In this document: in pieces, positions 8,903 through 39,400 of the stretch
How the letters are laid out: each line of letters begins with the position of its first letter
Numbering within the stretch: the stretch's first letter is position 1
Virus record (IMG/VR): IMGVR_UViG_3300043410_001256
Coordinates: 30,880 to 94,879 of that record
Strand: one strand, 5' to 3'
DNA length: 64,000 bases
Source: a virus
Made by a program: the position numbers and the translations under genes
The notes under the pieces: generated by a model
What the model saw: the letters and a program-made list of their open reading frames with translations, nothing else
What the model was told of the DNA's origin: nothing
Database searches by the model: none

Positions 8903-9778
8903 ATGAGCACAGAACAGACAGCAGTGCCACCAGCAAATAACCCACTGAGCAAGTTTTTCCGCACCCCGGCAATTTATATTGGTTTGCCCAGTGGAGGACG
9001 CTGGTGGAAAGACGGAGCACTGGAATTACCCGAAAACGGGGAATTACCTGTGTATCCTATGACCAATCGTGATGAAATCATGATCAGAACTCCAGATGCG
9101 CTGATCAACGGACAAGGCGTAACCGATGTAATACAAAGCTGTATGCCCAACATCAAAGACGCTTGGAAAATGCCCAGTGTAGACGTAGACACTTGTCTGA
9201 TAGCCATGCGTATTGCCAGCTACGGGCACAAAATGGATTTTACAAACAAATGTCCGCATTGCAAAGCAGAACACGACTATGCAGTGGATCTACGTGTGAT
9301 GTTGGATTCTATCAAATGCCCCGACTACGATAAAGATCTAGACATCGGCGTTATTAAAATCAAGTTCCGCCCACAGATGTACTGGGAAACCAACTTCACA
9401 AACAAAACCAGTTTTGAAGTGCGTAAACTGCAAATGGCTCTGGAAGCATTGCCCGGTGACGAGGAAGATGAAGAAAAGACCAAAGCACTAACAGATCAGC
9501 TGATGCGTGTTAACGAAATCAATCACTCTGTTATGGCCAGCAGTATTGAATACATTGAAATTGTTGAAAGTGGTGAAAGAGTTGGAGATCAAAACTTTAT
9601 TAAAGATTTCTTAAACGAAGTTGATCGTAAAATATTTGATCAGATACAAAATGAAATCACCAAGCTACAAGAACAAGGTGCAGTTAAGCCAGTTAAAGTA
9701 AACTGTAACTCTTGCAATGAACCGCTGGACATTGCTATCCTATTTGATTATTCAAATTTTTTCGTAGTCGGCTCTTGA
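8903..9778 (+). CDS. Baseplate hub / tail assembly chaperone, T4 gp26/gp51-like
   Basis: LPSGGRWW..., PMTNRDEI, DVDTCLIAMRIASYG, two CxxC motifs (CPHC, CNSC), ends ...DYSNFF; GAGGA RBS. Confidence 0.8.
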   Translation: MSTEQTAVPPANNPLSKFFRTPAIYIGLPSGGRWWKDGALELPENGELPVYPMTNRDEIMIRTPDALINGQGVTDVIQSCMPNIKDAWKMPSVDVDTCLIAMRIASYGHKMDFTNKCPHCKAEHDYAVDLRVMLDSIKCPDYDKDLDIGVIKIKFRPQMYWETNFTNKTSFEVRKLQMALEALPGDEEDEEKTKALTDQLMRVNEINHSVMASSIEYIEIVESGERVGDQNFIKDFLNEVDRKIFDQIQNEITKLQEQGAVKPVKVNCNSCNEPLDIAILFDYSNFFVVGS

Positions 9779-9993
9779 CTTTAACCGACGACGAAATTGG
9801 ATTGTTGCTAGAAGAATACGACAAACAGTCAAGAGCCATACGCGAGGAAGTGATTAGATTTACCTGGTGGATGCGCGGAGGAATAGATTATGATTCCGCT
9901 ATGTCCTTGGCTCACACTGACAACGAAATCATCAGGGAAATTATTAAAGAAAATATGGAAACTACTAAGAACAGTGGTTTACCATTCTTCTAA
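9775..9993 (+). CDS. Second chaperone ORF, probably translated as a -1 frameshift extension of 8903..9778
   Basis: TTG start without SD; -1 frame is open from 9748 across slippery A-AAT-TTT-TTC (9754-9763). Confidence 0.7.
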   Translation: MTLTDDEIGLLLEEYDKQSRAIREEVIRFTWWMRGGIDYDSAMSLAHTDNEIIREIIKENMETTKNSGLPFF

Positions 9994-10013
9994 TACTTTT
10001 TCTAACACTTTCA

Positions 10014-10032
10014 AGAACTGCTTCGCAGTTCT
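10014..10032. terminator. Perfect 8-bp hairpin AGAACTGC-TTC-GCAGTTCT (possible bidirectional terminator or DNA mini-hairpin)
   Basis: Seen directly, 20 nt after stop at 9993. Confidence 0.5.
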
Positions 10033-10410
10033 ATTGATTTCGCTATCGCTCATCAATATCTTTCTTCGCTTTAGCGATTTTAAGTATCATCTAGATTAAT
10101 CGGTCAGAATTCGCCCGTTGCCGGGCAAAAAACGTGCATCATCTGAGTAGCACAGTCATCTATTCTAAATGGGATTGTCGTAAGACACGGAGGCGGTTGA
10201 CCTGTACCCCCTACCCAAGCTTCGCATGTCAACGGAACCCTAGTGATCCGGAATAGACCCAAATCCTATAAGCTGTGGTTGCATCTTTTTCGCAGAGCCA
10301 CGACCATTTGAACCTTAAGTTAGTTCTTTTCTTGCAACGCACCAGTATCTAGCGGCACAGCACTACCTGTACAACCTCAAGGTGAGTCTAGCAGCCTAGA
10401 CCAAACAATG
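10014..10410 (-). ncRNA. Large structured non-coding element (unassigned ncRNA and/or origin region)
   Basis: ~425-bp gap between convergent genes in a dense genome; many stems: GTCTAG/CTAGAC, GCCCG-GCAA-CGGGC (GNRA on -), long-range TCTATTC/GAATAGA, GTTGAC/GTCAAC, AGAACTGC-GAA-GCAGTTCT. Confidence 0.6.
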
Positions 10411-10418
10411 TTGCTATG

Positions 10419-10934
10419 TTATGAACACAGAGTACGAACTACTTTAACGTGTTCGTTGTGTTCCCAAAATTTATCGTAATCGTAAATGAGCCAGGAGCCG
10501 TGTTTGTCTGATTGGTAGAGAAGATGTGGTATCGATAGATCCCAATGTGTGCCATGTTGTACCGCTACAAACATGCCTTTGCGGTTGAACTTCATGAACA
10601 GAATATTGAAATCACCTTGGTCGGCTACATCCAATGTTTGCTCAATCCAGTCATCCAGCTGTTTGCAGGAGCCTTGAAAGAGTTGATGAAATGGAAAGTC
10701 TTTGTAACTTTTGCACTCAGCATTGAACTTTGGGAAACTCTGTCCAGGAATAATATCCCCTTTGAAGCTTCTTATTTGTCCCTCGTGCAGTATCTCTTTG
10801 CGATTTGCATTTGACCCGCCAATATAAGCGCCAGAATGCGGAACGCGGATAAAGCGTTCTCCATAGGTAACAGTAAGGTGATCTGCCACCTTGCGTTCCC
10901 ATGCATTTCCTTTTGCTTTTTGTGGACTGGTCAT
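10419..10934 (-). CDS. Holliday junction resolvase, Hjc-type PD-(D/E)xK nuclease
   Basis: KAKGNAWERKVA...GDII...AECKSY; end of recombination operon. Confidence 0.8.
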   Translation of the reverse strand: MTSPQKAKGNAWERKVADHLTVTYGERFIRVPHSGAYIGGSNANRKEILHEGQIRSFKGDIIPGQSFPKFNAECKSYKDFPFHQLFQGSCKQLDDWIEQTLDVADQGDFNILFMKFNRKGMFVAVQHGTHWDLSIPHLLYQSDKHGSWLIYDYDKFWEHNEHVKVVRTLCS

Positions 10935-10986: not shown

Positions 10987-11895
10987 CTATTTTAGAACGG
11001 TTTCTTCTGTAAATTGCCTTGAAAAGTGTGTTTGATTGTTGTGTGTAGAACAGTGCCTTTTGCAAACTTCATGCGGATTTGTGGTCCAGCTGTCTGCGAG
11101 TCCATGATAATTTGGTGCTTGTATCCATTGTTTTAGTTGATCGTCTAGTGTAAAAATTCTGTTGCCTATGAAACAGCAGGGCAGTACTTGCCCCGTTGCT
11201 GACACGTATAAACTTTTTTCGTTTACAGCATGACAGGAAATTGGGCCATCGGGCACGATTGGAACATAGCCTTTGGGCGGAGATAAAAACTCCACAGGAC
11301 GATCTTCAAATCTATTGCTAACCTTGGCACGAAAATGTGTAAAGCCCATCTTTCTAGCATGTTCACGGCAATGGTCAACATGATGCTGATTATGCTCAAA
11401 CACCAGCATGTCCCAGTGTGCTCTCCCGCCTGACATGATAAATGTTTCTGCATTCAGCATCACACGATGCCACATAACACCTCGGCGATAGATGTCATTG
11501 GTACTAGCCATGCCGTCGATGCTGAACACACAATAATCTAGATTGCAATTAAACAGTTCGCCTAGTTCAATCCAAAAACGTGTGTCACGTAATCCACCAT
11601 TGGTATTCATGCCCAGGGTGATGTTGGGATTAACTTCTCTAAACCAACGCAGTATAGGTATACATTCTTTAGCTGCCGCCGGATCGCCAAAGTCTCCACA
11701 GGCAAACACCTTATCCAGCTGGCGTACAAAATCTTCTGAAAACAATTCTTTGCAACGTGCCAGTGTTAAGTCATGATCATCACTGTAGCCTAGACTAGGA
11801 TCCATTCTACTGCATTGAGGACATGATGCTTGACACCTGGTGGTTAACTCAAGATGCAGTACACGTATGCCAGCAGGATCAAACGGTGTCAACAT
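10987..11895 (-). CDS. Radical SAM enzyme with C-terminal twitch-type Fe-S domain
   Basis: CQASCPQC; MNTNGG; FSIDG; C-terminal C...YVSATGQVLPCC...CKRHC. Start placed at ATG 11895 (MLTPFD), overlapping the gp46 stop; track start is 11919. Confidence 0.88.
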   Translation of the reverse strand: MLTPFDPAGIRVLHLELTTRCQASCPQCSRMDPSLGYSDDHDLTLARCKELFSEDFVRQLDKVFACGDFGDPAAAKECIPILRWFREVNPNITLGMNTNGGLRDTRFWIELGELFNCNLDYCVFSIDGMASTNDIYRRGVMWHRVMLNAETFIMSGGRAHWDMLVFEHNQHHVDHCREHARKMGFTHFRAKVSNRFEDRPVEFLSPPKGYVPIVPDGPISCHAVNEKSLYVSATGQVLPCCFIGNRIFTLDDQLKQWIQAPNYHGLADSWTTNPHEVCKRHCSTHNNQTHFSRQFTEETVLK

Positions 11896-13648
11896 CTGTT
11901 CCATAGCTGGTAAATCCATTTTCTTTTGTAACAGTCAACACATTGCTAACACGACTAGTTAACTCATCCTTGTGACTTACCAACCAAACACTCTTGTTTC
12001 TATCACGTGACATCTTCTTGAGAATAGCCAAGGCTGCTTCAACACCTGAACTGTCCATGCCTGAGTCTACAACTTCGTCAATGAACAGCAGGTTAATAGG
12101 TTGATACAGACTTTCCCACACATCACGGAAGCTCCAGCTCAGTGACAGGATAAGTCTATTACGTTCTCCACGTGACAAGTTATCAAAGTCTAGTTCACGT
12201 CCTAGCTCAGTGATGTTAACAGTTAAGTCGTTTTGGAATACCACTGTGTGTGGCAAGCCAATCTTGTCAAGGTAGTAACTTAGTCGTTGATTTAGATAAG
12301 TTAAGTTTTGATCAATGATGCGTTTGCGAACAAAGCTGTCTTTGCTGGTAAGCAGTTTGTGTAAAAAGTCTTGATGATCCAGCAGGTTGGTTAACCTGTT
12401 CATTTCATCATAATCAATTTCTTCCAGCGCCTGCTTTTCCATTTCTACAATTTGATCAGAGTATGGATCTGCTTCTTCCTGTTTAGCAGTAATCTGTCCA
12501 AGTATGGCACCCAGACTGGCACGATGCTCAAATGCATCTGCTTCACGCTCATAGAATGTTTTAGGAACTTCGCCCAGCTCACCTAGTTCTGCTAGTGCAG
12601 TGGTGTTCTCCATGTACTGTGTGTTTGCACTCAGCGCATTCAGTGCGGCTTCCTGCATTTCTGTTTTTTTAGTAGCAAGCAACTGCTCATGATTGTTGTC
12701 GTGTAGTTCTTGTCCACAAGCATGACACTTGTGATCTTCCAAGCTGGCAATTTCTGCTTTGAGCTTTTCCACCACACGATTTTCACGAGCTTCATCGCGC
12801 TCGTTCTGTACAATATATTTTTTAAGTTGATCAATGGCTTGCTTTTTAACAAAGTATTCTGCAAGCTGTTGATGTGCAACCAGTTCTGCTTCAATGTCAA
12901 TTTTGTCCAGCTCTGCGTAGCCTACAGCAAGTTTTTCTAGATCTTCCTGCTTCTTGGTCTGCCACAGAGTTTGTCTGCGACGTAGATTAGCAATCTGATC
13001 TTCCATGCGCTTGTTGGCATCCTGCACAGCCTTGATGCGATATTCCTCTTTGGTAATTGCATCTTTGGTAGCCTTCATTTGCTCTTTGAGAGCTTCGGCT
13101 TTTTCTGATAGCTGTGTAACGCCCAACAACTGTTCAATCATCACACGTTGTTCTGCGGCTTTCAAGCTCAAGAACGGCTCTGTGTAGGTGTTCAATGCAA
13201 CCACGTGCTTGAACATTTCGTGACTCATGCCCAATAGCTGTTCAATGGCATGTTGTGTTTCTCTTGAGTCGCCTTGTGCTTCGTCTTTTTGTTCTTGCTC
13301 TACATCACCCACAAAGAATTTCAGTGTGTTGGGTTTACGCCCACGCTCAATCTTGTAGCTGACTCCGTCTTTGTCAAACTCAATGGTAACCATCATAGCT
13401 TTACCATTGGTTTTGTTAATTAGGTTTTCCTTGCGAATGCGTGTGAGTGCTTCGCCGTACAGCGCATAACTCAGTGCATTGATGATTGTGGTCTTGCCTG
13501 TGCCATTACGTGCGCCTGTGTCGTCCCCGCCTAGGTCTAGGTTTTGCCCCAACACCAGTGTAAGATCACTGCGATCAAATCGAATGGCCTGCGTGGCATT
13601 ACCCACGCTCATAAAGTTTTTTACAGTAAGATTTTTAATTATCATCAT
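11879..13648 (-). CDS. gp46: Recombination ATPase gp46 (Rad50/SbcC-like)
   Basis: KNFMSVGN, Walker A NGTGKTT, coiled coils with Zn-hook CHACG, signature LSRGE, Walker B LLFIDE, H-loop VSHK. Confidence 0.96.
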   Translation of the reverse strand: MMIIKNLTVKNFMSVGNATQAIRFDRSDLTLVLGQNLDLGGDDTGARNGTGKTTIINALSYALYGEALTRIRKENLINKTNGKAMMVTIEFDKDGVSYKIERGRKPNTLKFFVGDVEQEQKDEAQGDSRETQHAIEQLLGMSHEMFKHVVALNTYTEPFLSLKAAEQRVMIEQLLGVTQLSEKAEALKEQMKATKDAITKEEYRIKAVQDANKRMEDQIANLRRRQTLWQTKKQEDLEKLAVGYAELDKIDIEAELVAHQQLAEYFVKKQAIDQLKKYIVQNERDEARENRVVEKLKAEIASLEDHKCHACGQELHDNNHEQLLATKKTEMQEAALNALSANTQYMENTTALAELGELGEVPKTFYEREADAFEHRASLGAILGQITAKQEEADPYSDQIVEMEKQALEEIDYDEMNRLTNLLDHQDFLHKLLTSKDSFVRKRIIDQNLTYLNQRLSYYLDKIGLPHTVVFQNDLTVNITELGRELDFDNLSRGERNRLILSLSWSFRDVWESLYQPINLLFIDEVVDSGMDSSGVEAALAILKKMSRDRNKSVWLVSHKDELTSRVSNVLTVTKENGFTSYGTDVDTV

Positions 13649-14522
13649 GGTTGTCTATACTAGCACATGTACCACAGGAATGTAAACATTTCTGGTGAGG
13701 ATGCTGTTCTAATTCAAGTTTAATATCTGGCAACTGATCAAAGCTGTGGTACTCACGCCTGTGATTGAAAAAACAGCACGGCGACAACTGACCATTGGCA
13801 CTTAGATACACACTGGGATCTGTTAGATGCCTACAGTCTTTTGTGGTTACTGTTCTGTCAGGTTGTTTGTACTTGTTGGTCTTTTGATCTTTGCTCCAAG
13901 GCTTTATTTCAATTGTTTGTCCTGTTTGATAGTGTTTTGCCACATCGGGATATCTAACATTTCTAACTATTTCAAAACGTTTGAATCCCAACTGCTGACT
14001 CAGTGCTATGCATCGAGTTATTTCTGTTTGGTTGTGCTCAAACGGTATAAACTGCCATACCGCTTGTCCGCCTTGATCAATAAACGCAGTGGCATTGTCG
14101 ATAACCTTTTGCCATGCTGTGCCTTGGCGATATATTTCATGTGTTCCTGCTAGTCCGTCTAGTGTAAACCAGACTTCGTGCCTAATAGGAGCGAGCAGTT
14201 CAGCAAGATCACGCCACCAGTCTTGATTGCGTAAACTGCCATTGGTATGAATGTTCACGTGCCCAACACGAGACACAGCGATTTCGATATGTTCAAGAGA
14301 ATCCGGCGAAGCCAGTGCATCACCGTATGTGCCACAAAATTGTATAGTAGACAAGTTAGGAAACATGTCCAGCACTTCTTTGAATCGATTGATATCTAAA
14401 TCCTGTTCTACAAAGTTATCTCTTAATCCATAGCCACCGTTGTTCCTGCCACAAGAGGGACACCAGGCATTGCACCGAGTAGTATTTTCTACTTGTAACC
14501 AGGTGATATCACTGGCCTGCAT
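13635..14522 (-). CDS. Radical SAM enzyme with C-terminal twitch-type Fe-S domain (paralog of 10987..11895)
   Basis: CNAWCPSC; IHTNGSLR; FTLDG; C...YLSANGQLSPCC...CLHSC. Confidence 0.88.
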   Translation of the reverse strand: MQASDITWLQVENTTRCNAWCPSCGRNNGGYGLRDNFVEQDLDINRFKEVLDMFPNLSTIQFCGTYGDALASPDSLEHIEIAVSRVGHVNIHTNGSLRNQDWWRDLAELLAPIRHEVWFTLDGLAGTHEIYRQGTAWQKVIDNATAFIDQGGQAVWQFIPFEHNQTEITRCIALSQQLGFKRFEIVRNVRYPDVAKHYQTGQTIEIKPWSKDQKTNKYKQPDRTVTTKDCRHLTDPSVYLSANGQLSPCCFFNHRREYHSFDQLPDIKLELEQHPHQKCLHSCGTCASIDNHDDN

Positions 14523-27402: not shown

Positions 27403-30400
27403 ATGTCTATTAAAAGTATAAATCTTTTACCTGAAGTATTCCGCAGTGAAACTAACAAAAAGTTTCTTGCAGCCACCGTTGATCAATTGATCAGCGAAGC
27501 AGACACCACTGTACGAGTTGATTCTTATATTGGTCGTCAAGATGCACCAGCATGGAGCACTGGCGACACTTATATCAAAGAACCAAACACAGATAGGAAA
27601 AACTATCAACTTGAATCTTCGGTACTAGTAGATGCTGGTCAAGGCCAGACTGACTTTTACAATGGCTATCTAGATCTATTACAACAAATTTCATACTATG
27701 GTGGTTTAACAAATGACCATAGCAGATTGTTCAGCAGTGACAGTTACACATTTGATGGTTGTTTTGACATTGACAAGTTTGTTAACTTTACACAATACCT
27801 ATGGCTACCAAATGGCCCGCCAGAAGTTACTGTAACCGCGAGCAATCTAGATGTTTCGTCTCTGTACAATGTCAGCAGATCACTTGCTGTACAAGGTTAT
27901 CAGTTTACTGAATTTGGTAACGATAAAAACCCTATCATCACATTGATCAAAGGACAAACATATCGTATCAAGGTTAACCAGCCAGGTCATCCATTTTGGA
28001 TCCAAACAAATCTAGGTGCCACTGGAACCTACAGCGAAAGTGCAACCGAACTAAGTCGCCGTGTGCTCGGCGTAAACAACAATGGTATTGATGTTGGCGA
28101 AATTGAATTCAGCGTACCAGCTGGCAATGCACAGGATACTTTCTTAACAGCAAAAACAGCAGCCACAGTTGATTTTGCCACAACTAAAAAATACAGCCAA
28201 ATTCAAGGCGCAATGACTAACCAGCTTGCTCTCATTGGAGGCATTGATGGAGTTAGTCAAGGTTTGAATGGCAAGACTCTAATCTTTTTAACTGATGACA
28301 ACAACAATGATGCCTGGACAGATCCTGGTAACTTTGACGTAGGTACAGAAAACGGTCAGCCGGGTACATTTGATTACGACGGCGAAGGATTTGAAGCAGG
28401 TGATACCGTTGCAGGTGTAAACCGCAAGGGAATTTTTAGAATTCGTTTGGTTTCTGTTGCAGGCGGTCGTCAAATTGTTAAACTGGATCCTATCCAACAA
28501 GTTGCATTGGGAGAAAAAGTCTACGTCAAAGCAGGTACAAAAAATTCCAACGTTGAATATCTATTGAATCAATCAAATCAATATGAAGCAGTTCCTCCTC
28601 TTACTGCTTCGTTGGATACCTTGTACTATCAAGACGGGTCAGACAACAAGTTTGCTGGTATTATTAGACTGGTGAATCCAGGCACAGAAACAATTAACAT
28701 CGACGAAGATATCGTTGGTAAAGTAAACTATACAAGTCCTAACCAGGTGGTGTTTACCAACGGTCTGCATGTTAGATTTGATGATACTGCAATTCCAAGT
28801 TCTTATGCTAACAACAATTACATTGTTGAAGGTGTAGGCGATGCAATTAAATTGATCAGCATTGGTAATTTCAGTTCTCCTGAAAACTATGCACAACTCA
28901 GCAATCTTGCAACTCCTGACTATATTACGATTAATCGCGCCAGCCGCGATCTAAATGCTTGGTCCAGAAGCAACCGTTGGTTCCATATTGAAACAATTGA
29001 ATCAGCAGCCAAGTACAGAGAAGAGCCAGCATTGCTGGACATATCGGGTATACAAAGAGCCAAGCGTCCAATCATTGAATTTGATCCAGACATTTATTTG
29101 TTTGACTATGGTCGCACAGCCAAAAGCCCAGTTGATATAATTGACTTTACTATCACTGATGCTTTCAAAGAAGTTGAAGGACAAACGAACTATGTAATTC
29201 GTATGCCCAACGGCGTTACACGTGCTCTTACTGCTGGTACACGAATTATTTTTGCTGCCGACGAAGATCCAGAAGTAAACAACAAGATCTACAGAGTTGA
29301 TTTTATTACAACCAGCACTGGAACACAGATTCACTTGGTGAGTCAAAACACCAGCACGTTGCCAACATACACAGTAAATTCTGCTGTAATAACATCAAAT
29401 CTAAGCTACAACTTTATACCAAGTGTAACATTCTCTTCTCCACTGCCAGGCATTGGCACAGAAGTTGCTACAGGTAATGTAGTTCTAAAAACATCCGGTG
29501 TTGATTCAATTGGCGTAAACAATTCAGGCATCAGCTATGTTGCTGATCCTTATATTTCTATCAGCAGTGATTACACCACCGCAGTTGAAACCAATATTGT
29601 ATACCAGCCTTACAAGCACGTTGACTACATTAGACTTGTTGCACGTGGTACTGGCTACACAGCAACCAATCCAAATGTACACATCAGTAATCCTAATACC
29701 TACTATGCAGTAATTTCAAATGCCACAGTAGGACAGTTTGGTTTAACTTTTGAAGCCAATGGCATTACAACCAGTCAATGGCTAGGCATACAACCAGGCG
29801 CTCAGGTAATTGGTAACGGTATCATTGGCGGAACAATTATTACAGCAGTAGATCAAACTGCAAACTTGATCACAATCAATGCACCTGCTATTTCAGCTAA
29901 CGTTGATTCAGTGCCACCTATTTCAGGTATTACCACAGTGGCCATTGGTGACCAGTGGGTGTTCAAGACCAATGTAACTGCTGGCACTTATGCAGTTGTA
30001 CAATCTACTGTACAAAATGCCAAGACTGTTACAGTTGATGATACCAGCATGATTGATGTTGGTATGATTGTCAGCGGCGGCGAACGACCAATATCTATAT
30101 CCAGTATAAGAATTGATGTTGTGCCAACTCGTGTAATTACTTCATCACTGCACAATCTCAATGACGGAGACTTGATCTTTATTCGCGATATTGTTGGTAC
30201 AGTTGAATTAAACTTTTCACGTTACTATGTAAAACGAATCAGCGAAACTGCAATTGATTTGTACACAGACTCTAGTTTTTCTACTGCCGCACAACAAGAC
30301 TCACGTAACTTTACAGACTATGTAAGCGGTGGTTTGATCACTGCCTACACCATTGACTATGCTCAAACAAAAGTAGCAAAGGTGTTAAGTTCTACACAGT

Positions 30401-33400
30401 TTGTAACAGACAAGAATGTAACAATTCGTGCTGGCGCAAAACTGGTGTTTGCAGGTGTTCCTGCTACTGCTATTGCACGTAGCGATGGTAACTCCATTTA
30501 TAATATTTCCGTTACCAATGCCGGCTCCGGATATGCATCTGCACCAACTGTTACCATTGAAGACACACAAGGTAACCAGGCCACTGCAACTGCTGTGGTA
30601 AATGATAATCTTATTAGCTATGTTGAAATTGTAAACCCAGGCGCTGGTTACAAAGTTGGTGAAAATGTACAAGCTGAAATTGTAAGTTATGTAGAACTGA
30701 AAACATCGGCTACATCAACTTACGGAACTGATACTTTGTATTTTGCAGAAGGCACAGACCTTAGTGCAATTAAACCAGGTTGGTTGGTATTCTTGGTTTC
30801 TACTATTAACGGCAATGAGTTGTATACAGATTTTGGATTGACTCCGTATGCGGAAACAGATTACACTGGACCAAATCCGGATGACTACATTTCGTTTATG
30901 GATATTGCACTAACACGTGCAGATATTCGTACAGTTGTTACTGTGGACACCGATCGTTTGGTATTAGATGGGCCTATTAGAAGCTTAGACTCAGATGGCG
31001 AAGTAATTGACTTGCCATTGGATTCCAAGATTTTTGTAACTTGCCAAAGCAGATTCTTCACAGAAGACGGTTATGGTTCTAGTGCTAGAGTTCCAGGAAA
31101 TACAAAATCTGGATTCCTTAGTGTTGCAGAAATCGTAACTGGCAATGAAATGGTTCTAGACACCGTTGCAGGTGTACAACCTGGCATGGTAGTTAAAGAT
31201 GTATCTGGATACATTTCCTATACCGTTACTGTATTAAACGTTGATGCTTATACTAGAAGAATTAAACTTTCCGGTGACGTTACTGTTCCAGCACTAACAC
31301 CAGTTTATTTCAACAACAATGCAGACATAACAGCAACCATTGCATCATCTGAAATTGACTACATTGACATTACAAATTCAGGTCGTGGATATGTACATGC
31401 TCCACAAATAACTATTGAATCATTGTATCCTGTTGTTACCAAGGTGGCAGCATGTACTGGCAGCACAAATTTAATCACATACCTTGATCCAACAACTCTA
31501 GCACCAATTCAGTACCAGTCTGGTAAAGTACTAAAAGTTGACACCTACACTGGTGTAGTTGTTGGTGCAAAAGTAACAAGTACCTATGATAACTTTGGTG
31601 TTGGTTTAACCACTGGTGCAAATACACCTAAAGTTGTAGCATTGGTTCTAGAACAAACAGCGTCTGCGGTGTTTGAAAAGAGAATTGTATTAGATATACT
31701 ACAACCTGAGTTCAGTGACATCGAAGTAACATTTACCTATGCCGCCGAAGCAGTGGCATTAATTGATCAGCAGAACTCTGCAATAGATGTCGAAGACACC
31801 ACACCAGAAACATATGATGTTGGCGATACTGTGGTTGTTAATATTCCTACTAACGCTAGACAAACTTCGACTAATATTGTTACATACAATCAATATTATT
31901 TTACAGGCACAGAATGGTTGCCTGCACAACAAAAATCAGACACCAATCAAGAACCACTGTTTGATGCGTTTGATAAAAATGGATACAGTGCCGGCGATGG
32001 TACTACATACCCTGGTACTAAATTCACAGGTACCAAGATCTTTGGATATCGCATAGGCTCGGGTAAAGCAGACACTGTGCTGAATTTCTCACTGACCTAT
32101 AAGAATTTCCAAAACGTTGGTGATATTGAATTCTCTAACTACTTCCAGACCGATACGTTTAGTTACTTGTTAGGGTTTGGCGAAGTTTCAATTCCAATTA
32201 AGAACTTTGTTCTTAAACAAAGCACCAGCGACAGTTATCGTTTAAGAAACATCTGGACTCCAGTTACTGAAAAATCAAAACAGTATCAGGTTATCACACA
32301 TCAATATGATGGTACAACCAACTATTTTGAAGTTGACATTGAACCAGAAACCAGCAACACAATACCTTACTTAAAAGTATTTGTTGGAACTACCCTGCTG
32401 GATTCAACACAGTATGTGCTTACACAGTTTGGCGGTCGCAAGGCTATTGTTATTAACACATCTAACCTTGACACCAACAAACAGGTTATTATTAAAATAT
32501 ACAGCAAGTCACAGTCTACAATTGGACATTATGAAACACCAGTTAACTTTGATTTGAATCCATTGAATAATAACTTTGAGTATTTGACACTGGGACAAAT
32601 TAGAAATCACCTGGTTACCAAAACACAAAATCACTATGGTTTAGTTGGCCCAACACTGGGAAATAATAACCTACGCAACATTTCTAATAAGAGCTGGCAA
32701 GGCTCAATTCTACAACACGCAAGTCCTGTGGCCATGGCAGCTTTGTTTATGACAGACAAAGATTTGAATGTTGTTCAGGCAATCGAATTTGCACAAAAAG
32801 AATATTCTAAGTTCAAGAATCGTTTCTTGGACATGGCAGCTAAGTCACAGATTGACCCATACGATATTCCTGCATCGGTTGATCGTGTATTAGAAAGCAT
32901 CATGGTAGGTAAGAGCTCAATGAGCCCGTGGTACGACAGCGACATGGTTCCATACGGATCAAAGTTCCGTAAAACCACTCGCATACCAGTGTTGAATGTA
33001 AGACAAAAAACATATCTGATTCCAGATACTTTTGATCCTACTGTGCTATCTCGTCGTGCGGTATTGGTATACTTACAAGACACAACCACTAGAACTGTTC
33101 AACAGTTAATAAGAGGAATTGATTTTGATTTCCTAACTGATACTTCTAGTATTCTTGTTAAAGACTCTGTGTCCTTAACCTACACCAGCGTGATTGTTAT
33201 TGTTGACTATTCAACCACGGTAGAAAACTACATTCCAGAAACTCCAACCAAGTTGGGAATGTATCCTAAATTTACACCTACTTTGATAGTTGACGATTCT
33301 TACAGAACTCCTATCAATGTTATTCAAGGACACGATGGTAGCCTAACCCCTGCATTCAATGACTATCGTGATGATATGTTGTTGGAACTAGAGCGTAGAA

Positions 33401-36400
33401 TTTACAATAATATCAAAGTTGAATACGACGATACATTGTTAGAAATCTATGATGATATTCCTGGTAAGTTTAGATCTACAGATTATTCTAGACAAGAATT
33501 TAATCAGCTGATCACAAGAACATTCCTTAGCTGGATTGGCAACAACCGATTAGACTACAGTTCAAATAGTTACTTTGATCCAAACAATTCTTGGACCTGG
33601 AACTATGCACGTTTCAAAGACAGCACAGGAGAATCTTTACCTGGCTACTGGCGCGGTGTTTACAAATATTTCTATGATACTGATCGTCCACACACCATGC
33701 CATGGGAGATGCTTGGCTTTAGTACCAAGCCAGACTGGTGGGAAACATACTATGGTCCAGCACCATACACCAGCGGTAACAAAGTTTTGTGGGAAGACCT
33801 AGAAGCAGGACGCATAGTTGATGGCACACGTGCTGGCATTGATTTGCGTTTTGCCCGTCCTGGACTGTCAAAGATTATTCCAGTGACTGATACAGGAGAG
33901 CTGGTGAGCCCAATTAATCTTGGCGTTACCAATTACAATCCTACGGATACCAGTGCATCGTTTAGCATTGGAGACCACGGACCTGTTGAAACAGCATGGC
34001 GTCGTAGCAGTGACTATCCATATGCTGTACAAATTGCATTGATCCTGGCAAGACCTGGGTTCTATCTAGGCACACAGTTTGATAACAATAGATATCGCTA
34101 TGATTCAGAACTAAAACAAATCACTGATATCACCAGTCGTCAACGTTTGATCTTGGATCAGATTGTTGTACCAGATTCTGGATTAAAAGACAGCGATGTT
34201 GCGCTCACAGCCGGATACAGTAACTGGATAAGAGATTTCCTAGTACAACAAGGTATTGACGGATCAGCACGTATGCGCGATTGGCTCAAACGTTTGGATG
34301 TACGTTTAAGTTACAAGCTGGCTGGCTTCACTGACAAGAACATGATGGAAGTTGTAGCAGAGCAAAGTAGTCCAGGAGGTAGCGGACGCAACATTATTAT
34401 TCCTGACGAAAACTACAGAGTTCATCTGCACAAGAGCACACCAGTAAAGCGTTTAATCTACAGTGCTATTATTGTAGAAGTAACCACCAATGGTTGGAAA
34501 GTCAGCGGATACGATATTCTAAGACCATACTTTACTATTGTACCTAGCGAAATTAACAACAATGCTTATAGTATCAGCGAGCTAGGATTAAGTGTAAGAG
34601 TATACAGAGATTATCAACTGCGTAAGTTGACAATACCATATGGCTTTGAATTCAAAACGCATCAACAGCTTGCAGACTTCTTGACCAGTTATGGTCGCTA
34701 TCTAACAGCCAATGGATTTAACTTTGAAAGAAACAATGATGAGCTAGGTACAGCACAAGACTGGGACTTGGCTATTCGCGAATTCCTAACCTGGAGTAGA
34801 CAAGGTTGGGCACCCGGTAATGTTATTGTATTGAGCCCAGTGGGTAGCAATATTTCTGTGACAGCTGATTACGGTGTAGTTGATCATATTACTAATAGAC
34901 TGATTGGCAACAAACTGCTGGATCAAAACTTTGCATTAATTCGTCAAGGCGATTATACAGTAACTCGCGATCAAGGCGTGTTTACTGCAAATGCATTATA
35001 TGGCAAGATGATTGCGCTGGCCGACTTGAGCTTGGTTGAATACGAACATGTGTTGATATTTGACAACCAGACTGTGTTCAACGATGTAATCTATCAGCCT
35101 GAGATTGGTAACAGACAATATCGGTTGCGTCTAATTGGCTTTAAGTCAGGCAACTGGACTGGTCAATTGAATGCCCCTGGTTATATCTACAACAGCCAGG
35201 AAGTTGACGAATGGCAACCTGGCGGAACTTACAGCATTGGCAGCTTGGTCAGTTACAAGAACCAATATTTTGTAGCATTACAAAAGGTTCCTGAAAGCAC
35301 AACGTTTAATTTCAACTACTGGAAGCCAATCGACAAGAACAGAATTAAAACAGGCCTATTACCAAACTTGTCAAATTCCGCAGGACGCTTGAAACATGTC
35401 TATGACATGGAGTACCAAGACCGCGATGAAAACTTTGACAAATACTCATATGGCTTGATTGGTTTTAGAAACAGAGAATATCTAAATGATTTGGGTATTG
35501 AAAATCGTGCCCAGGTTAAATTCTATCAAGGCTACATTAAACAAAAAGGTACAAAGAACGCAATTGAAAGATTAACATCTGGAAACTTTGATAGAGTTAC
35601 CAGTGAAATCACATTGTACGAAGAATGGGCCTTGCGTGTTGGCGAATACGGTGCCACTGGCAGTGATCAGTACATTGAAGTAGAACTCAGTGACCAATCA
35701 TTTACAGAAGATCCTGCTACTATTAATCTGCTGGACAAAGACGAAGCAGATGTATCAGGCGTAATTAACTTTACTCCATACACAATCTATAGAACCAGTG
35801 AAGAAAACTACAGCAAGAATATTGTAAAAACTAGATCTGACCTAAAGCCAAGAATTGGTGATAACGTCACTGCTGGTTATCCACGCTTGGATGACGTAGA
35901 CGGTACAATCTATAACATTGAAAATTATCAAAACTACTATCAGTTGGTAAACACACTGGGCGCAGGATACAAACTGTGGGTAGCTGTTGATTTCAACAAG
36001 AGTTGGAATATGTATCGTGCTACAGAAACAGATGTATTGTTGAATTCTATTACTAGAACCAGTGGAACAGATTTACTGTTTACATTTGATAAGCCTCATG
36101 GCGCAAGTGTAAAAGAATTAATTGTAATCAAGAACTTTAACAACAATGAATTTGATGGTTTCTACATTGTTAAAACAATCGAAGACAACTTGAGTGTTCT
36201 TGTTACAGGCTATCGTGGACTAGAAACATTTGCTCAAGTGCAAAGTGTTGAAAGTGAAGGCGTATACTTTAGAATGATCAGTGTACGATTCAACTTGGTA
36301 AGTGAAATTATTGAATTTACACCACCACATGGATGGAGAGATCAGGACCGTGTCTGGGTAGACAACGATCAAGCAGAAAATGTTTGGGGTGTGTTCCAAA

Positions 36401-39400
36401 AGATTGACGGTTGGCAGTTTGATCAATTGTTACCATTGCGTCAAGGTGAAGATCGTTACCAAGAGGGATATGGTAGTGAAGTTAGATTAAGTTCCGACAA
36501 TCAGATTATTTTAGCAGGTACACCATACTTTACCAATGGATCATTAACTGGACTACGAATTATTGATCCAGGTGCTAACTATTCAAACCCTGTGGTTAGA
36601 ATCACTGCTCCTACTGGATTAAATGGCGAACAAGCAAGTTTCTCTGTTACCAAAGACAACGGTACTTTAACCAAGGCCAACGTGCTTACAACTGGCGCTG
36701 GTTATACTATTTCTCCAAACGTTACCTTGCTAGACGAGTGGAATACTATAACCACAGCAGAAACATTAAACACAGATTGGTTGTATGTTAGCACAGCTGA
36801 CTTGGATCACATCTATCTAGGCGATTATGTAATCGGCGATGGTATCCCGGCTGATTATCAAGTAACTGATACTGACTTAGCCGGACATCGTGTTAAGATT
36901 GAAGGACCAGCATACGCCGGATTGATCAGTGCTACACCTATTCCTGTAGCCACAGGCACAGTAACATTTACAACCAATTTGCCAGCCACATTAACACCAA
37001 TTGTACCAGGTGCTGGTATTCGTGCGTACAAGACTGGTGACCTTTCTACGTACATTGAAGGTTATGTAATTGATTTTACTGGTACAACATTAACAGCACA
37101 AATTGAAATAGTTCAAGGTACTGGCTCAGCAACCAGCTGGGTAATCACAACCAGCCTAAGTGTACGCAGTGGCAAAGATGTTAAATTCTATAGAGGCACT
37201 GGTGGCCGCGTAGTATCAAAACTAAGTCCTACAGGTGTAGACTACATAGAAATTGTCAACGGCGGCAGTGGATTTATTATCACTCCAACTGTTGAAATTG
37301 TTGGCGGTGGTGGCTTTGGTGCAACTGCACGTGCAGTACTAACAGGTGGTCGTATCACCGAAGTTGTTATTACTAACCAAGGTTCTGGATATACAGAAGA
37401 ACCTGAAGTGATTTTGTTAACCAACAACCCAACTCCTGTTACACTAAGAGCTAGATTAAAACTAACATCAGTTGACCAATTTGTTATTACTGACAAAGGA
37501 CAAGATTACAGAGAACCAACCATTACAATCTCAACACACTCAAGCGATTATGCAAATAACGCACGTGCAGATTTAAGTTTTTACAGTAATGGTGGTATAC
37601 AATCAGTTGGATTTACTGGTGCTACAGCCAGCCGTGGAAGAAGTTACGGATCTGGTACAATCATTACCATGGCAAACAGCGCCACTGGTAGCGGATTCTC
37701 TGGCACCGTGACAACTTTTGCCAATGGTGCAATTAACACTATTACCATATTGAATCCAGGCAGTGATTACGATACTCAATACACTTATGCTAATTTGTAC
37801 TACGGTGGCGGCACTGGTGCAACGGGTAATATTGGACGTACCATTGACGGTATTTCTAACTTTACTGGAACCAGTGTTATCAGCTATGGTCAAGGTTATT
37901 TAGAAATTCCAACAGTTGAAATTGTTGACCTGTCAGGAACAGGTAGTGGTGCTATTGTTGAAGCAGTATTGCCAATTGGACAAGTTAAGACATTCTTACG
38001 CCCTGACCAAAACAAAACAACAATCGAAGAAACACAGTTGATCAAGCCGTTTAACAGCTATGCTAGAGAATTTGGCTACAGCGTTGACATTGGCACAATT
38101 CTTGCTGCCATTGGTGCACCAGGATCTTATAACGACACTGGTGGTGTTTTCATAAGCCAGACGCTAGGATCACAGTGGATCAGCTATCAATTGCTATACC
38201 CAGCAGATCTAATGGCAGGCGATAGATTTGGTCATAGCGTTGCAATGAGCCCAGATCAACAGTGGATCTACATTGGTGCACCAGGTGCTAACAAAGTATA
38301 TGCATATGGTAAGAAAACACAGAACTATTCTCGTGTTACTTTAACACCTGTGACAAATCAGTTATCCTATGCAACGAACTTGTTTAATTTGAAATCAGCA
38401 AGCGAATTGAAAGTATTAGGTAGCAACGGTAAACTATACGAACCAAACTTTGACTACACAGTTGACAACGCTGGTGGTATCTATTTTGCTGATTATGATC
38501 GTATTGCGACACAAGAAAAGATTTACATCAACCGTTTGCGCTTGCAGACAACTATTACACCAACTATTATTAGAAATCTAGTTACTAGAAGTTATGCGCT
38601 GGAAAGCCGCCCTGAAACCATTGACCAACTGTTGGTGTATGGCGCAACAGGCCGTGTGTTTGTGCCCAACAGAGAATACACTGTTATCGGCGGCAACATT
38701 GTATTCTTAACAGACGACTTCTTGAGTGAGCCAACTATTGTTGTGGTGCAGAAAGACGTATTCTATCAATTGGTAGACGTAATTGAACCGCCTGATTCTA
38801 TCAACAGCGACGCTAACTTTGGTTGGAGCGTCAAGTGTGACCAAGGAGGCTATAGAATAATTGTTGGCGCTCCAGACGTTGACGACATGGATGTAGATAT
38901 GAACACAATACCTAGTGCAGGTAGAGTGTACACATTCAGTCGCAGTTACGAAGTATTGCTAAGTTTGGGCGACACCAACATCTACACACTAGATGCATTG
39001 CGTAACGTGGTAGCGGTAACCATCGACAACATTCTACTAACCAACCTGGTTGACTATAATGTTGAAGGTAACTCTATTGTTCTTTCTGTTATTCCTCGTA
39101 ACGGTGCCCGCATCAAGATCGATACAAACTTCTTCAACATAATTCAAATCTTGCCTTGCCCAACAGTGGTTAACCTAGGACGTTTTGGATACACAGTTGA
39201 TATCAGCCCTGACAACAAGAGCCTTGTAGTTGGTAGTCCGGGGTATCGCGATGAAGTTTACTACAACGGCCAAGTGTATCGTTATGTAAACAAAGGCTTG
39301 TACTACGGAACAGTTACAACAGAAAAGACTTATCTTGAAGTTGGCGTTACACTAGGCGACACTATTAAGATCAACGACAAGAATGCATCATTGAGTCAGA

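What the first reader, a model, noticed from the sequence alone, without database searches (positions are those of the whole stretch)
10080..10418. Unassigned ~340-nt structured RNA candidate downstream of the resolvase
Seen: the only large gap in the window. On the - strand it has stems GGUCUAG/CUAGACU, GUGG/CCAC, a long-range UCUAUUC/GAAUAGA enclosing GGGGGU/GCCUCC with competing or pseudoknotted GUUGAC/GUCAAC, and GCCCG-GCAA-CGGGC (GNRA). AGAUGA occurs three times (+ strand TCATCT near 10087, 10139, 10156) and there is a G-run GGGUAGGGGG. I see no tRNA, tmRNA, RNase P, SRP or intron signatures. Inference: a large phage ncRNA co-transcribed with the recombination operon; the G-run recalls R-loop-forming replication pre-primers such as ColE1 RNA II.
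Basis: partly seen in the sequence, partly recalled or inferred. Interest (0 to 1): 0.78.

Follow-up and report, generated by a model that had tools for sequence, protein, structure and literature searches.

The report
Twin-box knotted RNA of jumbo phages
The gene-free gap encodes a real, roughly 405-base, doubly knotted non-coding RNA found in hundreds of giant T4-like phages; it carries the same 7-letter word twice, the two copies always change together, and its job is unknown.

Summary
On 20 full-length homologues, 85% of cells pair against 71% in shuffles, 56 of 79 pairs change on both sides, and both pseudoknots are confirmed. G-U far outnumbers A-C, so the RNA is on the minus strand. It runs from about 10414 to 10010, some 70 nt further than reported. 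Free energy alone is not above chance (z -0.5).

Rfam has no match in the window. In a sister branch, the front domain at the same genomic spot is the orphan motif Polynucleobacter-1 (RF01718).

Two units about 54 nt apart carry the same 7-mer (AGAUGAU here). The two copies are identical in 104 of 109 relatives, with 14 alleles and at least 35 changes each.

Probable distant relatives occur in cultured Escherichia, Cronobacter, Salmonella, Erwinia and Klebsiella jumbo phages, at 4-5 copies per genome. There the two words agree inside each copy but can differ between copies.

I found no partner sequence in cis, in phage genomes or among phage tRNAs. The best guess is a stand-alone RNA that grips two copies of one partner; this is inferred. 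The R-loop primer idea is not supported.

This scan had already found the family on other DNA.

The parts
10010..10414 (-). Whole conserved ncRNA gene (about 405 nt), 5' end at about 10414 and 3' end at about 10010
   Evidence: nhmmer and blastn conservation in more than 150 related loci. Identity reaches 83% nt where the neighbouring protein is only 68% aa identical.
10336..10412 (-). Front domain base. Pa is AAC 10412-10410 with GUU 10338-10336. It encloses P1 (10402-10396/10391-10385), Pb (CACC 10384-10381/GGUG 10343-10340) and P2 (10372-10367/10360-10355).
   Evidence: helices 1-5. Pb is 100% paired with 3 of 4 pairs compensatory. Pa has 3 of 3 pairs compensatory.
10275..10326 (-). P3 hairpin (GAAC 10326-10323/GUUC 10313-10310), with its largely conserved loop (UAACUUAAG in the window), and P4 (GUGG 10301-10298/CCAC 10278-10275; UGC 10294-10292/GCA 10282-10280), with an A-rich loop
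   Evidence: helices 6-8; for conservation.
10239..10271 (-). P5 hairpin. Its loop (UCUAUUC, 10257-10251) is the 5' strand of pseudoknot PK2.
   Evidence: RNAalifold pairs at columns 172-209 with compensatory changes. PK2 counts are, helix 9.
10189..10233 (-). Pseudoknot core. PK1 is GUUGAC 10233-10228 with GUCAAC 10201-10196, and the GUCAAC strand lies in the loop of Pd (GGGGG 10211-10207/CCUCC 10193-10189).
   Evidence: helices 10 and 12 (100% and 98% paired). G-U makes up 12-18% of cells against 0.2% for A-C, which fixes the strand.
10159..10217 (-). Pc (UGGG 10217-10214/CCCA 10173-10170), which encloses Pd, and the 3' strand of PK2 (GAAUAGA 10165-10159)
   Evidence: helices 9 and 11.
10134..10158 (-). 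Unit 1: UGAC 10158-10155, stem GUGC 10153-10150/GCAC 10137-10134, and a loop holding ACUC 10148-10145 plus box 1 AGAUGAU 10144-10138
   Evidence: Local folds in relatives place box 1 in a hairpin loop.
10111..10128 (-). H3 hairpin between the boxes (UUGCCCG 10128-10122/CGGGCGA 10117-10111, loop GCAA)
   Evidence: helix 14. The central C-G pairs are conserved; covariation is weaker here.
10086..10106 (-). Unit 2: UGAC 10106-10103, AUCU 10096-10093 and box 2 AGAUGAU 10092-10086
   Evidence: Box 2 is identical to box 1 in 104 of 109 relatives.
10014..10056 (-). 3' hairpins. Ha is 10056-10048/10043-10034, with a conserved GA/GAA internal loop and a GNNA-type tip. Hb is AGAACUGC 10032-10025/GCAGUUCU 10021-10014.
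   Evidence: helices 15-17 (90-100% paired, 10 of 15 pairs compensatory). On the + strand, Hb was scored as terminator-like for the convergent gene.

Best explanation
Shown: window 10414-10010 (- strand) is the gene of a roughly 405-nt structured non-coding RNA. It belongs to a large family in uncultured aquatic T4-like jumbo phages.

Its architecture is:
- a front domain (Pa, P1-P5);
- a doubly pseudoknotted core (PK1, PK2, Pc, Pd);
- two similar units (UGAC, 6-7 nt, A-YCU, then a 7-mer) that flank a G+C hairpin;
- two 3' hairpins.

The 7-mer of unit 1 sits in a hairpin loop. Unit 2 is less clear. The two 7-mers are the same within a molecule and differ between phages.

Inferred: the RNA works on its own, not as a leader of a gene. 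The knotted core is a rigid scaffold that holds the two identical words so that they bind two copies, or the two halves of a dimer, of a single sequence-specific partner.

The word can change at every position but the sixth (always A in this family). Cultured relatives carry several copies with different words in one genome. For both reasons I favour a nucleic-acid partner read by base pairing over a protein. The partner itself is not identified.
For: - Structure: 85.4% of cells pair against 70.9% in shuffles (0 of 500 reach it), and 56 of 79 pairs change on both sides. Slid controls give about 42%.
- Strand: G-U far exceeds A-C in PK1 and Pd.
- Non-coding: stop-free stretches are no longer than in shuffles.
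- Spread: more than 150 IMG/VR loci carry it, one copy per genome in five phage genomes.
- Twin words: identical in 104 of 109 relatives, with 14 alleles and 36 and 35 parsimony changes.
- Independent contrasts: at position 1 there are 12 contrasts and box 2 follows in 11.7 (p about 5e-4). At position 5 it follows in 6 of 6.
- One local haplotype carries all four A/G x G/A alleles, each in both boxes.
- Stand-alone: the next gene in the window is convergent. Neighbours differ between loci.
- Loop display of box 1.
- Cultured relatives keep the rule 'two words agree inside each copy' while copies within one genome can differ.
Against: - No partner was found.
- No complementary word occurs in the RNA or within 4-10 kb.
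- The word and its complement are not enriched in five phage genomes.
- No third covarying site appears in whole-genome alignments, including 147 kb shared by two phages that differ at box position 1.
- No phage tRNA anticodon loop matches more than 4 of 7 positions.
- Expression, RNA ends and loop accessibility are not shown. The metatranscriptome contigs were uninformative.
- A-to-G changes opposite a U would be tolerated in simple pairing, so strict identity of the two words is not fully explained.
- Unit 2 folds less consistently than unit 1.
Confidence: 0.45

Rival explanations
1. Protein scaffold or sponge: the two identical words are binding sites for a homodimeric, sequence-specific RNA-binding protein of the phage or the host. 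The RNA titrates or assembles that protein.
For: - Positions 2, 3, 4 and 6 of the word are nearly fixed in the aquatic family (G, A, U, A), and most change is at positions 1, 5 and 7. This looks like a protein site with a few free positions.
- There are two sites about 54 nt apart.
- No nucleic-acid partner was found.
Against: - Wholly different words exist: GUCGGAA, AUAGCAG, ACAGAAU, and CGUCAG or CUUCAAG in cultured phages.
- Different words coexist in copies within one genome.
- At least 35 changes in a shallow tree would each need a matching change in the protein.
Confidence: 0.2
2. Cis-acting leader or attenuator: the RNA controls transcription or translation of a gene downstream, and the boxes are sensor or switch elements.
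For: - RF01718 was listed by its discoverers as probably cis-regulatory (PMC2864571).
- In cultured enterobacterial jumbo phages, the six copies whose annotation I inspected lie in gaps upstream of a co-oriented gene.
- Several of those copies hold a hairpin plus U-run between box 1 and H3.
Against: - In this window nothing co-oriented follows. The next gene is convergent and ends at 9993.
- In relatives the downstream neighbour varies.
- A core of about 400 nt with two pseudoknots is far larger than known leaders.
- I found no alternative pairing of the boxes.
Confidence: 0.12
3. The two words touch each other, like with like, as part of the RNA's own tertiary or quaternary fold, so identity is a structural rule and there is no outside partner.
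For: - Identity is a within-molecule rule, even where copies in one genome differ.
- No external partner was found.
- Large phage RNAs such as ROOL and GOLLD are reported to self-assemble.
Against: - I know of no natural RNA with a 7-position like-with-like contact.
- The words are not palindromic.
- Two cultured copies, in Cronobacter phage GAP32 and Pectobacterium phage CBB, show a third copy of the word about 65-70 nt downstream.
Confidence: 0.08
4. Replication-origin RNA or DNA element: an R-loop pre-primer, or directly repeated protein sites in DNA such as iterons or recombination cores.
For: - It lies beside recombination and replication genes: SbcC/SbcD-like and a resolvase-like PDDEXK.
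- It holds direct repeats of a short word.
Against: - Seventeen helices covary as RNA pairs, with a G-U excess on one strand.
- The G-run is paired.
- Only two repeats are present, and their flanks differ consistently.
- 54 bp is too short for recombination between the sites (my own knowledge).
- Cultured relatives have 4-5 dispersed copies.
Confidence: 0.04

Closest known systems
Polynucleobacter-1 RNA motif (Rfam RF01718; Weinberg et al. 2010, PMC2864571)
   Same: In 11 sister loci, including those with the closest PDDEXK proteins, RF01718 scores 96-120 bits directly behind the same gene. It is followed by the same pseudoknot and twin-box 3' domain as in the window. Both are orphan RNAs from fresh water. 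The P3-P4 stretch of the window (CUAACUUAAGG...GAUCGC) looks like model positions 89-112.
   Different: The window's front domain gives no RF01718 match, even at E up to 10. The Rfam model covers 141 nt and none of the knotted core or the boxes. Rfam files it as an sRNA, and its discoverers listed it for Burkholderiales and fresh water or estuary; I found no described link to phages. Homology of the two front domains is not shown.
GOLLD (RF01998) and ROOL (RF03087), large ornate RNAs of phages and prophages
   Same: These too are several-hundred-nt, multi-pseudoknot, phage-borne RNAs of unknown function that were found by comparative genomics.
   Different: There is no sequence or structure match in Rfam. 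As far as I know, neither has a pair of co-varying identical words.
T-box leader RNAs (RF00230)
   Same: This is a working analogy only. A structured RNA shows a short, family-member-specific word followed by a conserved purine in a loop. In the twin-box RNA, position 6 of the word is always A. The cultured-phage core GUCA(A/G) is complementary to positions 32-36 (UUGAC) of the anticodon loop UUGACAU of E. coli tRNA-Val(GAC).
   Different: There is no Rfam hit. There are two words instead of one. No antiterminator or NCCA-binding bulge was identified. In the window there is no downstream gene. The fit to tRNA loops is poor in the aquatic family: position 2 is G and position 7 is mostly U.
CsrB/RsmZ-type sponge RNAs
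   Same: One short motif is displayed several times in loops of a single RNA so as to bind a dimeric partner.
   Different: In those RNAs the motif (GGA) is fixed across bacteria and repeated many times. Here the word changes freely, occurs twice, and is set in a rigid knotted core.

Membership tests
Polynucleobacter-1 RNA (RF01718) | Covariance-model score at or above the gathering score of 37 bits | tested here: not met
   There is no match in the window at the gathering threshold, or at E up to 10 over 9900-10600. Sister loci L002, L003, L004, L006, L013, L029, L030, L042, L045, L046 and L051 score 96-120 bits.
Polynucleobacter-1 RNA (RF01718) | Same genomic position and same downstream RNA domain as bona fide members | tested here: met
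   RF01718 hits begin 10-20 nt after the PDDEXK gene (or, in L042, about 1.1 kb after it), as the window's RNA does. They are followed by the conserved 3' half (hmm positions 226-526).
Twin-box RNA (informal name used in this scan; not in the literature I could search) | Pseudoknot core: GUUGNN pairs with NNCAAC inside the loop of a GGGGG/CCUCC helix | tested here: met
   Present at 10233-10189. PK1 is 100% paired with 5 of 6 pairs compensatory; Pd is 98% paired.
Twin-box RNA (informal name used in this scan; not in the literature I could search) | Two identical 7-mers about 50-60 nt apart, each after UGAC-N6-7-A-YCU, with a G+C hairpin between them | tested here: met
   AGAUGAU is at 10144-10138 and at 10092-10086, with H3 at 10128-10111.
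Twin-box RNA (informal name used in this scan; not in the literature I could search) | Concerted change of the two 7-mers across relatives | tested here: met
   104 of 109 relatives have identical boxes. Changes number 36 and 35. Independent contrasts give p about 5e-4 at position 1 and 6 of 6 at position 5.
GOLLD / ROOL / other large Rfam RNAs, RNase P, tmRNA, group I and II introns | Match to the family covariance model | tested here: not met
   cmscan against 4227 families found nothing at the gathering threshold. Only chance-level hits with E of 7-10 appeared in the gap. ARAGORN found no tRNA or tmRNA.
ColE1 RNA II-like replication pre-primer | A G-rich stretch free to form a persistent hybrid with template DNA at an origin | tested here: not met
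   The G-run is the 5' strand of helix Pd and covaries with CCUCC. Origin activity itself cannot be tested with these tools.

The most novel reading that the evidence does not exclude
Twin-box RNAs are programmable, bivalent readers. The word is a codon-like triplet (positions 3-5) followed by an A that pairs with the universal U33. Each RNA would then seize two molecules of one particular tRNA by their anticodon loops, to shield, sense or deliver it during infection. Jumbo phages of enterobacteria carry sets of 4-5 such RNAs.

Leads, not tests:
- Position 6 is A in 109 of 109 aquatic members.
- All copies I read in cultured phages share the core GUCA, with UUCA in RaK2.
- GUCA(A/G) is complementary to positions 32-36 (UUGAC) of the loop UUGACAU of E. 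coli tRNA-Val(GAC). The variant GUGUCAA pairs with all seven loop bases, counting one G-U.
- GAP32 encodes 26 tRNAs but none for Val.

Against:
- Position 2 is G and position 7 is mostly U in the aquatic family, which fits tRNA loops badly.
- A match of this kind is expected by chance about one time in three.
Probability: 0.08. Interest if true: 0.92.

Novelty: new variant of a known kind. Interest (0 to 1): 0.72.

Why it matters
- **Scale.** This is a large, intricately folded RNA kept by hundreds of giant phages. Probable distant relatives sit at 4-5 copies per genome in cultured Escherichia, Salmonella, Klebsiella, Erwinia and Cronobacter phages. Rfam lists only a 141-nt piece of one branch, as an orphan motif, and I found no described link to phages.
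- **The rule itself.** I know of no described RNA class in which two identical words mutate together. It points to a way of working that has not been described, such as bivalent recognition of an unknown partner.
- **Testability.** Because E. coli phages such as 121Q appear to carry relatives, the question can be tested with ordinary phage genetics and pull-downs.

Tried and rejected
- **Free energy.** Single-sequence folding energy is not above shuffles on either strand.
- **Nucleotide search of cultured phages.** Searching with the window's gap, or with a sister RNA, gave no match.
- **Model R1 (3' domain) against cultured phages.** There was no significant hit in PA5oct, SCTP-2, Phosso, Atu_ph07, 121Q or RaK2. 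The GAP32 hit was weak (17 bits) and is accepted only because the architecture and the twin word are there.
- **PA5oct ncRNAs.** The four RNA-seq-defined ncRNAs of PA5oct (PMC7318152) show no core motif.
- **Metatranscriptome and metagenome contigs laid on the window.** Only fragments of relatives aligned, over both the genes and the RNA. They say nothing about expression or RNA ends.
- **Partner searches.** All were negative:
  - reverse complement of the word inside the RNA or the locus;
  - genome-wide counts of the word;
  - covarying third sites in whole-genome alignments;
  - phage tRNA anticodon loops.
- **Host hint.** A pattern scan of 185,579 bacterial and archaeal species genomes returned 100 stretches, about the number expected by chance. 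Of the 80 stretches held as loci and screened, only two are real members. Both sit on large contigs of a Haliscomenobacter MAG, probably phage DNA in the bin, and they carry different alleles.
- **Literature.** The IMG/VR catalogue of structured RNAs (PMC10690425) does not mention this RNA in its main text.
- **Kink-turn or C/D-box reading of GAUGA.** Rejected, because the supposed G-A pairs are not kept in other alleles.
- **Coding, bypass or small-ORF readings.** Rejected.

Full report
**Setting.**
- The window is part of a 94.9-kb IMG/VR virus record, estimated 27% complete, which makes it a jumbo phage.
- The gap lies between two convergent genes. One is the last gene of a minus-strand block. 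That block holds SbcD-like and SbcC-like genes, two radical-SAM genes and a PDDEXK_15 gene at 10419-10934, which related cultured phages annotate as a resolvase. The other is a plus-strand 72-aa ORF that follows a T4-type baseplate gene.
- The window holds no tRNA or tmRNA gene and no Rfam match at the gathering threshold. Only chance-level hits (E of 7-10) appear in the gap.

- The folding energy of the 339-nt stretch alone is ordinary: z = -0.51 on the minus strand and +1.66 on the plus strand.
- Comparison with relatives settles the question. The PDDEXK protein fetched 80 related loci, and a conserved 20-nt pattern fetched 120 more.
- More than 150 of these loci hold the gap sequence. Identity reaches 83% where the neighbouring protein is only 68% identical.
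- On 20 full-length homologues (A1), RNAalifold found 38 of 62 pairs with compensatory changes.
- I then wrote a structure of 17 helices from the window's own pairings. It has 85.4% of cells paired, against 70.9% in shuffles (0 of 500 reach it) and about 42% when partners are slid. Changes on both sides occur in 56 of 79 pairs.
GUUGAC/GUCAAC is 100% paired with 5 of 6 pairs compensatory. UCUAUUC/GAAUAGA is 86% paired with 7 of 7 pairs compensatory.
- G-U makes up 12-18% of cells in PK1 and Pd, against 0.2% for A-C. So the molecule is an RNA read from the minus strand.
- Stop-free stretches are no longer than in shuffles.
- Conservation runs from about 10414 to about 10010. Two further covarying hairpins (10056-10034 and 10032-10014) therefore belong to the RNA.

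**The twin words.**
- Mutual information on 109 non-redundant members showed three column pairs that covary by identity, not by complementarity.
- These columns belong to two 7-mers about 54 nt apart, at window 10144-10138 and 10092-10086. Both read AGAUGAU. Each follows a UGAC-N6-7-A-YCU motif.
- Other genomes carry GGAUGAU, GGAUAAU, AGAUAAU, AGACGAA, AGAUCAA, GUCGGAA, AUAGCAG, ACAGAAU and more. Almost always the same word appears in both places.
- I built a tree without the box columns. The two boxes agree in 104 of 109 members and need 36 and 35 changes. Where box 1 differs between independent pairs, box 2 follows: 11.7 of 12 at position 1 (p about 5e-4) and 6 of 6 at position 5. Position 6 is always A.
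- One local haplotype carries all four A/G x G/A combinations, each in both boxes. So linkage plus recombination cannot explain the pattern.
- Local folds put box 1 in the loop of a hairpin whose stem starts at the UGAC motif. Unit 2 is less regular.
- I found the boxes before consulting earlier notes. Those notes show that this scan has met the same family many times on other DNA and calls it the twin-box RNA.

**Relation to known families.**
- In 11 sister loci, including those with the closest PDDEXK proteins, Rfam's Polynucleobacter-1 model (RF01718, 141 nt) scores 96-120 bits directly behind the same gene. It is followed by the same knotted twin-box domain.
- The window's front domain does not match that model at all, although its P3-P4 stretch looks similar by eye.
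- RF01718 is an orphan motif. Its discoverers listed it for Burkholderiales and fresh water or estuary, and as probably cis-regulatory (PMC2864571).
- A scan of 185,579 bacterial and archaeal species genomes for the core pattern gave about the number of hits expected by chance. Of the 80 stretches held as loci and screened, only two are real members. Both are on large contigs of one Haliscomenobacter MAG.

**Cultured relatives.**
- A covariance model of the 3' domain (R1) gave a weak hit in Cronobacter phage GAP32, in a 660-nt gene-free gap.
- That locus has the same core: CCGUUGU/ACAACC inside GGGAG/CUUCC, a G+C hairpin, and AAAUCU before the second word. It also has a twin word, CGUCAG.
- Its sequence matches 71 cultured jumbo phages of Escherichia, Klebsiella, Erwinia, Salmonella, Yersinia, Pectobacterium, Serratia and Xanthomonas, at 198 places. 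That is 4-5 dispersed copies per genome. Rfam has no match to them.
- I read the copies in twelve phages and the one matching place in Klebsiella phage RaK2:
  - GAP32, CBB and two Erwinia phages carry UCGUCAG in most copies. GAP32 and CBB carry CCGUCAG in one copy.
  - 121Q carries CGUCAA.
  - RaK2's matching place carries an 18-nt shared word that begins CUUCAAG.
  - In Munch and Hallingskeid the copies differ from one another (CGUCAA, CGUCAAG, CGUCAG, GUGUCA).
- In every copy read, the two words inside it share the same six letters; where they differ it is only at the seventh. Identity is thus a within-molecule rule, and one genome can hold several words.
- Homology of this enterobacterial clade with the window's family rests on shared architecture and a weak model score. 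I call it probable, not proven.

**What does it do?** I looked for a partner and found none.
- The complement of the word is absent from the RNA and its surroundings.
- Neither the word nor its complement is enriched in five phage genomes, one of them complete.
- In whole-genome alignments, only the boxes themselves covary with the allele. This includes 147 kb shared by two phages that differ at box position 1.
- The extended motif occurs only in the RNA copies of GAP32 and 121Q.
- No phage tRNA has an anticodon loop complementary at more than 4 of 7 positions.
- Metatranscriptome contigs gave no information on expression or ends.

**My reading.**
- I commit to this as an inference: a stand-alone RNA whose knotted core presents two copies of one word to bind two copies of one partner.
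- I favour a nucleic-acid partner, because the word can be rewritten completely and can differ between copies in one genome.
- Rivals are a dimeric protein partner, a cis-acting leader, a direct like-with-like contact between the boxes, and an origin or DNA-repeat function.
- The leader reading fits the cultured copies that lie upstream of genes and hold internal terminator-like hairpins. It does not fit this window, where the next gene is convergent.
- The origin reading is contradicted by one-stranded covariation and by the paired G-run.

**A lead worth testing.**
- The invariant A at position 6 and the core GUCA of the cultured copies fit a codon-plus-A word that pairs with U33 and the anticodon of a tRNA.
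- GUCA(A/G) is complementary to positions 32-36 (UUGAC) of the loop UUGACAU of E. coli tRNA-Val(GAC), read here from valV and valW.
- The variant GUGUCAA pairs with all seven loop bases, counting one G-U.
- The fit is poor in the aquatic family, and a match of this kind is expected by chance about one time in three. I give this reading 8%.

**Verdict.**
- The finding is real and unusual.
Its R-loop idea is not supported.
- The RNA belongs to a widespread family of which only a fragment is catalogued. Its function is open, and it can now be tested in E. coli phages.

Noticed in passing
window 27403-45663 (+): A single open reading frame of 6086 aa in a block of very large plus-strand ORFs (1194, 729, 1177, 860 and 858 aa). 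It is probably a giant virion or fibre protein of this jumbo phage.
   Followed up: no
window 10987-11919 and 13635-14522 (-): Two radical-SAM-like genes are interleaved with the SbcC/SbcD-like recombination nuclease genes. One is below the Pfam cut-off (19.8 against 29.5 bits) and the other just above it (30.8 bits).
   Followed up: no
window 9745-9993 (+): The 72-aa ORF after the baseplate gene starts with TTG and overlaps the end of the 291-aa gene. Another first-reader note proposes a -1 frameshift here. I did not examine it.
   Followed up: no
G003:C1 and G004:C1 (contigs of L012 and L015); GAP32 293273-293345: ARAGORN calls a tRNA with anticodon CUA (an amber suppressor type) in two related aquatic jumbo phages and in Cronobacter phage GAP32. 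This hints at stop-codon read-through or recoding.
   Followed up: no
L339 640-807 and L351 4075-4239 (Haliscomenobacter sp. MAG EUL_031, contigs of 148 and 183 kb): Two large contigs in one Bacteroidota MAG each hold a full twin-box RNA, with different alleles (AGAUGAU and GGAUGAU). They are probably jumbo-phage contigs binned with the MAG, and give a weak hint at the host.
   Followed up: partly
GAP32 261,9xx and 177,9xx; 121Q 247,9xx and 327,0xx; RaK2 7,2xx-7,4xx: Some copies in cultured jumbo phages carry a strong hairpin followed by six or seven U between box 1 and the G+C hairpin H3. This could be an internal terminator that splits or regulates the RNA.
   Followed up: partly
GAP32 (NC_019401), whole genome: GAP32 encodes 26 tRNAs covering 18 amino acids, but none for Val or His. 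All five of its twin-box copies carry the core GUCA.
   Followed up: partly
L022, L015, L019, L034 and others, between the PDDEXK gene and the RNA: In many relatives an extra 0.8-1 kb, probably one gene, sits between the resolvase-like gene and the RNA. Further inserts of 1-3 kb separate the RNA from the convergent gene. Earlier notes report a small GIY-YIG nuclease upstream of the RNA in other genomes; I did not identify these inserts.
   Followed up: no
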